Origin: Escherichia coli
GTDB taxonomy: Bacteria > Pseudomonadota > Gammaproteobacteria > Enterobacterales > Enterobacteriaceae
Strand: one strand, 5' to 3'
Length of the DNA: 64,000 nucleotides
Assembly: GCF_041886205.1 (NCBI RefSeq)
Contig: NZ_CP169029.1
The notes below the pieces were generated by a model. The model was given only the letters and a program-made list of their open reading frames with translations, was not told the origin of the DNA and searched no databases. The translations under genes and the position numbers were made by a program. This document shows positions 15,680 through 16,569 of this stretch, one piece after another; position 1 is the first letter of the stretch; every line of letters begins with the position of its first letter.

Positions 15680-15737
15680 ATGAAGATTTTTTTGGAGAAT
15701 GTTTATCATTCTGATTGCTATTTCCTGCCGATAAGAG
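15680..15737 (+). pseudogene. ydiV: ydiV 5' remnant (first 19 codons), truncated by IS1 copy B
   Basis: atg aag att ttt ttg gag aat gtt tat cat tct gat tgc tat ttc ctg ccg ata aga = MKIFLENVYHSDCYFLPIR, matching the YdiV N-terminus, then runs directly into the IS1 terminus at 15738. Confidence 0.75.
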
Positions 15738-15792
15738 GGTGATGCTGCCAACTTACTGATTTAGTGTATGATGGTGTTTTTGAGGTGCTCCA

Positions 15793-16068
15793 GTGGCTTC
15801 TGTTTCTATCAGCTGTCCCTCCTGTTCAGCTACTGACGGGGTGGTGCGTAACGGCAAAAGCACCGCCGGACATCAGCGCTATCTCTGCTCTCACTGCCGT
15901 AAAACATGGCAACTGCAGTTCACTTACACCGCTTCTCAACCCGGTACGCACCAGAAAATCATTGATATGGCCATGAATGGCGTTGGATGCCGGGCAACCG
16001 CCCGCATTATGGGCGTTGGCCTCAACACGATTTTCCGCCATTTAAAAAACTCAGGCCGCAGTCGGTAA
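15793..16068 (+). CDS. insA: IS1 InsA
   Basis: Identical 91-aa translation to copy A InsA. Confidence 0.95.
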
Positions 16069-16490
16069 CCTCGCGCATACAGCCGGGCAGTGACGTCATC
16101 GTCTGCGCGGAAATGGACGAACAGTGGGGCTATGTCGGGGCTAAATCGCGCCAGCGCTGGCTGTTTTACGCGTATGACAGGCTCCGGAAGACGGTTGTTG
16201 CGCACGTATTCGGTGAACGCACTATGGCGACGCTGGGGCGTCTTATGAGCCTGCTGTCACCCTTTGACGTGGTGATATGGATGACGGATGGCTGGCCGCT
16301 GTATGAATCCCGCCTGAAGGGAAAGCTGCACGTAATCAGCAAGCGATATACGCAGCGAATTGAGCGGCATAACCTGAATCTGAGACAGCACCTGGCACGG
16401 CTGGGACGGAAGTCGCTGTCGTTCTCAAAATCGGTGGAGCTGCATGACAAAGTCATCGGGCATTATCTGAACATAAAACACTATCAATAA
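15987..16490 (+). CDS. insB: IS1 InsB frame
   Basis: Identical 167-aa translation to copy A InsB. Confidence 0.95.
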
Positions 16491-16505
16491 GTTGGAGTCA
16501 TTACC

Positions 16506-16569
16506 CCGCTTCCTGTGCCGACAGGACCGGCACTCGTCCATTAATACGAGGTGGTTTTACAGGTTTCAT
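16506..16569 (-). pseudogene. ydiF: ydiF 5' remnant (first ~21 codons), truncated by IS1 copy B
   Basis: Reverse complement of 16506-16569 reads atg aaa cct gta aaa cca cct cgt att aat gga cga gtg ccg gtc ctg tcg gca cag gaa gcg = MKPVKPPRINGRVPVLSAQEA, matching the YdiF N-terminus from memory. Confidence 0.7.

What the first reader, a model, noticed from the sequence alone, without database searches (positions are those of the whole stretch)
15680..16569. IS1 sits at a deletion junction fusing ydiV codon 19 to ydiF codon 21
The sequence shows a YdiV N-terminus (MKIFLENVYHSDCYFLPIR) running directly into one IS1 end and a YdiF N-terminus (MKPVKPPRINGRVPVLSAQEA) running into the other, with no target-site duplication (flanks ccgataaga vs ccgcttcct). 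In K-12, as I recall the order, about 19 kb separates these two genes (selO, hemP, aroH, ppsR, ppsA, fadK, ydiQRST, ydiP, ydiO). This looks like an IS1-mediated adjacent deletion. Loss of ppsA/ppsR would remove PEP synthase and impair gluconeogenic growth on pyruvate or lactate, loss of ydiV removes an anti-FlhD4C2 factor, and loss of aroH removes the Trp-sensitive DAHP synthase.
Basis: partly seen in the sequence, partly recalled or inferred. Interest (0 to 1): 0.55.

Follow-up and report, generated by a model that had tools for sequence, protein, structure and literature searches.

The report
IS1-mediated 16-kb deletion, ydiV to ydiF
One copy of the mobile element IS1 sits where 16.3 kb of E. 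coli chromosome (14 genes, including PEP synthase ppsA) is missing; this is a real, strain-specific example of a well-known kind of transposon-driven deletion.

Summary
A complete 768-bp IS1 (window 15738-16505) lies between the first 58 nt of ydiV/rflP (19 codons + 1 nt) and the first 64 nt of ydiF (21 codons + 1 nt). It has no target-site duplication. Both flanks keep the reference orientation. In K-12 the breakpoints are 16,312 bp apart, and 16,311 bp apart in the closest complete relative (E. coli wlxctx60, 10 SNPs + one 3-bp indel over about 61 kb).

The missing genes are most of ydiF, ydiO, ydiP, ydiQRST, fadK, ppsA, ppsR, aroH, ydiE/hemP, selO and most of ydiV.

A second, identical IS1 in arpB has a perfect 9-bp duplication and serves as an internal control.

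Neither junction, nor any joining of the two flanks, occurs in 5,426 complete E. coli genomes, and neither junction occurs in two large contig collections. ppsA is present in 5,420 of the 5,426.

The mechanism is IS1-mediated deletion. It arose either by intramolecular replicative transposition (favoured) or by recombination between two direct IS1 copies; the sequence cannot tell these apart. Relocation of the segment elsewhere in the genome could not be tested. This is an ordinary kind of event and of low interest.

The parts
14969..15433 (+). nlpC, the intact gene on the left flank
   Evidence: Full length with no internal stops; 1 aa difference from K-12 and 0 from VE-T9.
15680..15737 (+). 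ydiV (rflP) remnant: 19 codons + 1 nt. It reads into IS1 and stops after one more codon, giving a 20-aa product.
   Evidence: Translation. The same 19 residues start YdiV in wlxctx60. The alignment ends at K-12 1791963, which is nt 58 of rflP.
15738..16505 (+). Complete IS1 (IS1A-like), with IRL at 15738 and IRR at 16505. It replaces 16.3 kb of chromosome.
   Evidence: 768 bp, 6 differences from K-12 IS1A. Terminal inverted repeats (I1). NCBIfam NF033558 hits on both reading frames. 100% identical to the IS1 at 3749-4516.
15793..16068 (+). insA (91 aa) of IS1
   Evidence: ORF. Matches positions 1-81 of the IS1 transposase profile and the IS1/IS1595 zinc-binding domain.
15987..16490 (+). insB' frame of IS1. 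It is joined to insA by a -1 frameshift at the A6C motif at 16042.
   Evidence: ORF. Matches positions 76-199 of NF033558. Motif position.
16506..16569 (-). ydiF remnant: 21 codons + 1 nt. It reads into the IS1 right end and stops after one more codon, giving a 22-aa product.
   Evidence: Translation. The same 21 residues start YdiF in wlxctx60. The alignment begins at K-12 1775650, which is nt 64 of ydiF.
16715..17473 (-). aroD, the intact gene on the right flank
   Evidence: Full length; 2 aa differences from K-12 and 0 from VE-T9 and wlxctx60-type loci.
3749..4516 (-). Second IS1 copy, 100% identical, inserted in arpB (espL1-like) with a perfect 9-bp target-site duplication CATCAGAGC. It is the internal control for a simple insertion.
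   Evidence: Absent from wlxctx60.

Best explanation
An IS1 copy removed 16.3 kb of chromosome between ydiV codon 20 and ydiF codon 22.

The route I favour has two steps. First, IS1 inserted simply into either ydiV or ydiF. Second, that resident copy carried out intramolecular replicative transposition into the other gene on the same DNA molecule. This joins the IS1 end to the new target and releases the intervening DNA as a non-replicating circle that is lost (a classical IS1 'adjacent deletion').

The product is one IS1 with one old junction and one new junction, so its two flanks do not match. The event removes ydiO, ydiP, ydiQRST, fadK, ppsA, ppsR, aroH, ydiE/hemP and selO, and truncates ydiV and ydiF to peptides of 20 and 22 aa.

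Shown: the structure, the breakpoints, the missing DNA, and the intactness of the IS1. Inferred: the order of events, the route, and the phenotypes. Expected phenotypes are no growth on pyruvate, lactate or alanine as sole carbon source, loss of the anti-FlhD4C2 factor, loss of the minor Trp-sensitive DAHP synthase, and loss of the proposed anaerobic fatty-acid oxidation cluster.

That IS1 caused a deletion by one route or the other I hold at about 0.9. This particular route I hold at about 0.5.
For: Exact breakpoints come from alignments to K-12 and to the nearest relative wlxctx60. Both flanks are collinear and in reference orientation, with 16,311-16,312 bp missing and a single 768-bp IS1 in their place.

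There is no target-site duplication here, whereas the identical IS1 in arpB has a perfect 9-bp one.

The IS1 is intact and presumably active. It is also recently mobile in this lineage, because the arpB insertion is absent from a relative only 10 SNPs away.

No genome among 5,426 complete E. coli carries an IS1 at either breakpoint, and none of the seven closest relatives does. The two-event route therefore needs fewer unobserved intermediates than the three-event recombination route.

From the literature: IS1-family elements transpose replicatively and make deletions in cis without 'telltale' duplications (He et al. 2015, PMC4471558, citing Turlan & Chandler 1995).

The ydiV breakpoint lies in the most AT-rich 500 bp of the region (GC 0.386). 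IS1's preference for AT-rich targets is my own knowledge.
Against: The final sequence is identical to what recombination between two direct IS1 copies would leave, so nothing in the window discriminates between the routes.

The region is a recurrent IS1 target. 22 genomes have an IS1 within a few hundred bp of this ydiV stretch and 26 near this ydiF stretch. Strain EC06 carries direct IS1 copies in ydiV and in ydiF at the same time, so the two-copy precursor state is realistic.

No ancestor with a single IS1 at either breakpoint was found.
Confidence: 0.5

Rival explanations
1. Homologous (RecA-dependent) recombination between two IS1 copies. The copies had inserted independently, in the same orientation, one in ydiV and one in ydiF. 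Recombination deleted the DNA between them and left one hybrid IS1 carrying the left flank of one copy and the right flank of the other.
For: The product would be exactly the sequence seen: one IS1, no matching duplication, collinear flanks. E. coli EC06 shows such a precursor state at other sites in the same two genes. Its IS1 copies in ydiV (+) and ydiF (+) each have their own 9-bp duplication, and it has a third copy in ydiP. VE-T9 also has an IS1 in ydiP. IS1 near these gene starts recurs in 22 and 26 genomes. The lineage carries identical IS1 copies that would be good recombination substrates.
Against: It needs three events rather than two. No genome in 5,426 has an IS1 at either exact breakpoint. 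The nearest relatives have no IS1 in ydiV or ydiF at all. Both IS1 copies in the window are identical, so no hybrid signature can be read.
Confidence: 0.36
2. The 16.3-kb segment is not lost but relocated. It may have left as an IS1-flanked composite unit or as an excised circle that re-integrated at another IS1 copy elsewhere in the genome. In that case ppsA, aroH and the rest would still be present.
For: Nothing positive. It cannot be excluded because only 64 kb of the genome is available, and the source genome could not be found in any collection.
Against: No part of the segment occurs elsewhere in the window. An excised circle has no origin and is normally lost. Re-integration is an extra rare event.
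Confidence: 0.06
3. Assembly artefact. The genome really has two IS1 copies (in ydiV and ydiF) with the 16.3 kb between them, and the assembler collapsed the repeat and dropped the segment.
For: Collapse of a direct repeat gives the same sequence as a true deletion. No reads are available to check this.
Against: The same contig correctly spans another identical IS1 and an IS629, each with its proper duplication. This suggests a long-read or finished assembly in which 768-bp repeats were resolved.
Confidence: 0.05

Closest known systems
IS1-promoted adjacent deletions (Reif & Saedler 1975, gal region; Turlan & Chandler 1995, EMBO J, 'replicative deletions'). The first is recalled from my own knowledge; the second is cited in PMC4471558.
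   Same: A single IS1 is retained at the junction. The deletion starts exactly at an IS1 end. There is no flanking duplication. The flanks are collinear.
   Different: Those were selected in the laboratory with a known parental insertion. Here the parent is unknown, so the route is inferred.
Deletions by recombination between direct IS copies, as in Shigella/EIEC genome reduction and in long-term experimental evolution of E. coli (own knowledge)
   Same: The end product is the same, as is the outcome of losing a block of metabolic genes.
   Different: No two-copy precursor at these sites was found. The closest analogue is strain EC06, with IS1 at other positions in ydiV and ydiF.
Decay of ydiFO / ydiQRST / fadHIJK in extraintestinal Salmonella serovars (Nuccio & Baumler 2014, PMC3967523)
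   Same: The same anaerobic fatty-acid beta-oxidation genes are lost in a natural lineage.
   Different: In Salmonella the loss is by scattered pseudogenes across several host-adapted serovars and is argued to be adaptive. Here it is one deletion in one E. coli strain with no evidence of selection.
Simple IS1 insertion (for example the arpB::IS1 at window 3749-4516)
   Same: The same element, 100% identical.
   Different: A simple insertion has a 9-bp duplication and contiguous flanks. The ydiV/ydiF copy has neither.

Membership tests
IS1 family insertion sequence | Length of about 768 bp with imperfect terminal inverted repeats of about 23 bp beginning GGTGATG | tested here: met
   15738-16505 is 768 bp. 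The inverted-repeat arms are 15737-15760 and 16483-16506. It has 6 mismatches to K-12 IS1A.
IS1 family insertion sequence | insA and insB' frames that give the InsAB' transposase by a -1 frameshift at an A6C motif | tested here: met
   NF033558 transpos_IS1 matches profile positions 1-81 (InsA) and 76-199 (InsB'). TTAAAAAACTC is at 16042.
Simple IS1 insertion | Direct duplication of 8-10 bp of target on both sides, with flanks contiguous in uninterrupted relatives | tested here: not met
   The flanks are CGATAAGAG and CCGCTTCCT. They lie 16,311 bp apart in wlxctx60. The arpB copy meets this test.
IS-mediated deletion (either route) | One IS copy exactly at the junction; flanks collinear and in the same orientation as in relatives; intervening DNA absent | tested here: met
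   The segment is absent from the rest of the window.
Adjacent deletion by intramolecular replicative transposition | A parent with a single IS1 at one of the two junctions, with that junction unchanged in the product | tested here: inconclusive
   No genome with IS1 at either site was found among 5,426 complete E. coli, nor in genome contigs or metagenome contigs. The source lineage itself is not in the collections.
Deletion by recombination between direct IS1 copies | A parent with IS1 in direct orientation at both breakpoints, each with its own duplication | tested here: inconclusive
   Not found. An analogous state at other sites exists in EC06.
True gene loss (as opposed to relocation) | ppsA, aroH, selO, fadK and the other genes absent from the whole genome | not testable with these tools
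   Only the 64-kb window is available, and the source assembly was not found.

The most novel reading that the evidence does not exclude
The deletion may be one visible piece of a recent burst of insertion-sequence activity and incipient genome reduction in a commensal phylogroup-A-like E. coli lineage. The window shows three IS events (two IS1, one IS629) against only 10 SNPs relative to wlxctx60 in 64 kb. The loss of ydiV, ppsA and the anaerobic fatty-acid oxidation cluster might then be selected rather than accidental, echoing the decay of ydiFO/ydiQRST/fadK in host-restricted Salmonella.
Probability: 0.1. Interest if true: 0.45.

Novelty: new member of a known kind. Interest (0 to 1): 0.2.

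Why it matters
The kind of event (IS1-mediated deletion) has been textbook knowledge since the 1970s, so it teaches nothing new about mechanism.

Its local value is for annotation and phenotype. ppsA is present in 5,420 of 5,426 complete E. coli genomes, and the whole 16.3-kb block is at least 80% present in 5,362. This strain therefore belongs to a very small minority. It should be unable to grow on pyruvate, lactate or alanine as sole carbon source, should lack the YdiV brake on flagellar synthesis, and should lack the ydi/fadK cluster.

It also shows that ydiV, ydiP and ydiF are recurrent IS1 targets. ydiV is also used as a PCR marker for E. coli identification, and amplicons that are missing or of the wrong size are a known source of false negatives (PMC11237426). 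A strain like this one would give no ydiV product.

Tried and rejected
1. A self-BLAST extended the match between the two IS1 copies about 7 nt beyond IRL. I considered a shared flank, which would mean inversion or duplication. I rejected it because the arpB copy has its own perfect 9-bp duplication and the extra bases are only a loose chance match.

2. I suspected a Shigella origin because IS1 and IS629 occur together and because none of the window's three IS junctions is in 5,426 E. coli genomes. I rejected it. The window differs from E. coli wlxctx60 by 10 SNPs + one 3-bp indel over about 61 kb. Every other gene is intact. The IS629 copy is 100% identical to copies on many E. coli plasmids.

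3. The 1378-aa lhr ORF looked truncated. It simply runs off the window end.

4. I tried to find the source genome by exact protein look-up. The arpB fragment and the lhr fragment were not on record. AroD returned only loci with intact ydiF. The PheS sequence of the window (one residue different from wlxctx60; only 10 contigs on record) returned only loci about 99% related, and those that reach ydiV have it intact.

5. Exact 32-mers of both junctions gave 0 hits in genome contigs and metagenome contigs.

6. Literature searches for this deletion (ppsA, aroH or ydiV with Shigella or IS1) found nothing relevant.

7. IS1 insertions near ydiF in H1-H25. The record spans differ from the query span in all of them. 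In the one I opened (H7, strain GDSC2239PM) the IS1 is a simple insertion in the ydiF-aroD intergenic region with a 10-bp duplication.

Full report
WHAT IS IN THE SEQUENCE

Window 15738-16505 is a complete IS1.
- It is 768 bp and begins GGTGATGCTGCC.
- It has imperfect terminal inverted repeats (pair I1).
- It has an intact 91-aa insA and an intact insB' frame. Both match the NCBIfam equivalog NF033558 'IS1 family transposase' over profile positions 1-81 and 76-199.
- It has the A6C frameshift motif at 16042, and it differs from K-12 IS1A at 6 positions.

To its left, 15680-15737 encodes MKIFLENVYHSDCYFLPIR. One more codon and a stop are supplied by the IS1 end. The same 19 residues start YdiV in the closest relative.

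To its right, on the minus strand, 16569-16506 encodes MKPVKPPRINGRVPVLSAQEA, followed by one more codon and a stop. These are the first 21 residues of YdiF.

The 9 bp touching the element are CGATAAGAG and CCGCTTCCT, so there is no target-site duplication.

HOW FAR APART THE FLANKS NORMALLY ARE

The left flank ends at K-12 position 1791963, which is nt 58 of rflP/ydiV. The right flank starts at 1775650, which is nt 64 of ydiF. The missing K-12 interval is 1775651-1791962, or 16,312 bp.

It holds the rest of ydiF, then ydiO, ydiP, ydiQ, ydiR, ydiS, ydiT, fadK, ppsA, ppsR, aroH, ydiE (hemP) and selO, and the rest of ydiV. The same order is seen in strains VE-T9 and wlxctx60.

Both flanks have the same orientation as in the references. 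An inversion therefore cannot explain the junction. Only removal of the interval can.

THE REST OF THE WINDOW AND THE SOURCE ORGANISM

The window is collinear with K-12 from 1,806,922 down to 1,729,457, with three exceptions.
1. The junction under study.
2. A second IS1 at 3749-4516, in the opposite orientation and 100% identical. It sits in arpB (an espL1-like gene) and has a perfect 9-bp duplication, CATCAGAGC.
3. A 1310-bp IS629 at 45374-46683 in ydhR, with a 3-bp duplication AAT.

Every other gene I mapped is full length without internal stops.

The closest complete genome is E. coli wlxctx60, from bear faeces in Japan. It differs by 10 SNPs and one 3-bp indel over about 61 kb of shared sequence. 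It has none of the three IS elements and keeps the 16,311-bp interval intact.

I first suspected Shigella, because IS1 and IS629 occur together and all three junctions are absent from the E. coli collection. The near-identity to wlxctx60 and the lack of any other gene decay argue for an ordinary E. coli background. The IS629 copy is also identical to copies on many E. coli plasmids.

HOW UNUSUAL IT IS

- No complete RefSeq E. coli genome (5,426) has an IS1 at either breakpoint. The apparent full-coverage hits are two-piece joins to IS1 copies tens to hundreds of bp away.
- A query made of the two flanks joined without IS1 found no genome in which the flanks lie together (0 places with at least 80% coverage).
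- Exact 32-mers of each junction are absent from the species-representative genome collection and from the JGI metagenome contigs.
- The 16.3-kb block is at least 80% present in 5,362 of 5,426 genomes.
- ppsA is present in 5,420 of 5,426 genomes.

The deletion is therefore strain-specific and recent, and it removes genes that are nearly universal in the species.

The neighbourhood is nonetheless a repeated IS1 target.
- 22 genomes carry IS1 within a few hundred bp of this part of ydiV, and 26 near this part of ydiF.
- VE-T9 has IS1 in ydiP.
- GDSC2239PM has IS1 between ydiF and aroD.
- Strain EC06 has three IS1 copies, in ydiV (+), ydiP (-) and ydiF (+), each with its own 8- or 9-bp duplication.
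- The ydiV start is the most AT-rich stretch of the region, with GC 0.386.

MECHANISM

Two routes give exactly this sequence.

(a) Adjacent deletion. An IS1 already resident at one breakpoint transposes replicatively into the other site on the same molecule. This fuses one IS1 end to the new target and releases the intervening DNA as a circle that is lost. IS1-family elements are known to do this, and such deletions leave no paired duplications (He et al. 2015, PMC4471558, citing Turlan & Chandler 1995).

(b) Recombination between two directly oriented IS1 copies, one in each gene.

I favour (a) at about 0.5 against 0.36 for (b). It needs two events rather than three, and no IS1 is seen at either site in any relative. 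EC06 shows that the two-copy state is realistic, and the two IS1 copies in the window are identical, so no hybrid signature is available. The question stays open without sister isolates.

Two minor rivals remain, at about 0.05 each.
- The segment moved elsewhere in the genome. This is untestable with 64 kb.
- The assembler collapsed a direct repeat. This is unlikely, because the same contig resolves another identical IS1 and an IS629 with correct duplications.

CONSEQUENCES (INFERRED, NOT TESTED)

- Loss of ppsA and ppsR should abolish growth on pyruvate, lactate or alanine as sole carbon source. This is the classical pps phenotype; growth on pyruvate and lactate is used to rule out PpsA mutations in PMC3688616.
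- Loss of ydiV removes the anti-FlhD4C2 factor, which has also been reported to act on Fur (PMC7515728, abstract).
- aroH encodes the minor, Trp-sensitive DAHP synthase, so little effect is expected (my own knowledge).
This cluster is described as encoding anaerobic fatty-acid beta-oxidation (PMC3967523), although direct evidence for YdiQR is said to be lacking (PMC9329746).
- selO and hemP/ydiE are lost too.
- nlpC and aroD, the neighbours, are untouched.

VERDICT

It is nonetheless a new instance of a very well-known process, so its interest is low.

The only reading with more reach is that this strain is in an IS burst. The window shows three IS events against 10 SNPs in 64 kb. It also loses the same anaerobic fatty-acid genes that decay in host-restricted Salmonella. 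One window cannot support that reading.

Noticed in passing
window 3749-4516 (minus orientation): A second IS1, 100% identical to the one at the junction, is inserted in arpB (annotated espL1 in relatives) with a perfect 9-bp duplication CATCAGAGC. It is absent from wlxctx60. The nearest IS1 insertions in other E. coli genomes are about 33 bp away (for example strain YSP8-1, record span 294 vs query 261), so this gene also looks like a repeated IS1 target.
   Followed up: yes
window 45374-46683 (minus orientation): A 1310-bp IS629 (IS3 family) interrupts ydhR after codon 30, with a 3-bp duplication AAT. It is absent from wlxctx60 and from all 5,426 complete E. coli genomes at this site. The element itself is 100% identical to copies on many E. 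coli and Salmonella plasmids.
   Followed up: yes
whole window compared with NZ_AP045833.1 (L016-L018): There are three IS events but only 10 SNPs + one 3-bp indel relative to E. coli wlxctx60 over about 61 kb. This is a high ratio of IS events to point mutations and hints at a recent IS expansion in the source lineage. It cannot be extrapolated from one window.
   Followed up: partly
L029 (NZ_CM169496.1 2251500-2274500), strain EC06: A human-gut E. coli with three IS1 copies in the same 20 kb: in ydiV (+), ydiP (-) and ydiF (+), each with its own duplication. The ydiV and ydiF copies are direct repeats, so this strain is one recombination away from a deletion like the one in the window.
   Followed up: yes
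NZ_CP074994.1 (strain 8479, H187) and the six genomes without ppsA: A handful of complete E. coli genomes lack ppsA, and strain 8479 has no match to the 16.3-kb block beyond a fixB paralogue. How they lost it, and whether an IS sits at their junctions, was not examined.
   Followed up: no
window 1933-4607 (arpB) compared with K-12 1803094-1804993: Apart from the IS1, the arpB reading frame differs from the K-12 pseudogene by two single-base deletions. It stays open for 546 aa downstream of the IS1 (ORF 2040-3680, ankyrin-repeat-like). The gene may have been intact before IS1 hit it. The wlxctx60 copy is annotated as frameshifted.
   Followed up: partly
window 61610 (lhr), 56999-57001 (ydhP), 58685 (mepH), 43202 (ydhT): Several of the few differences from wlxctx60 fall in genes where wlxctx60 carries very recently numbered protein accessions or, for lhr, an annotated internal stop. 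These changes are therefore probably on the wlxctx60 branch, which makes the window's own branch even shorter.
   Followed up: partly
window 15680-15742 and 16498-16569: The ydiV and ydiF promoters and start codons survive. They should now drive transcription into IS1 from both sides: ydiV in the sense direction of insA and ydiF antisense to it. This could alter the activity of this IS1 copy. It was not tested.
   Followed up: no
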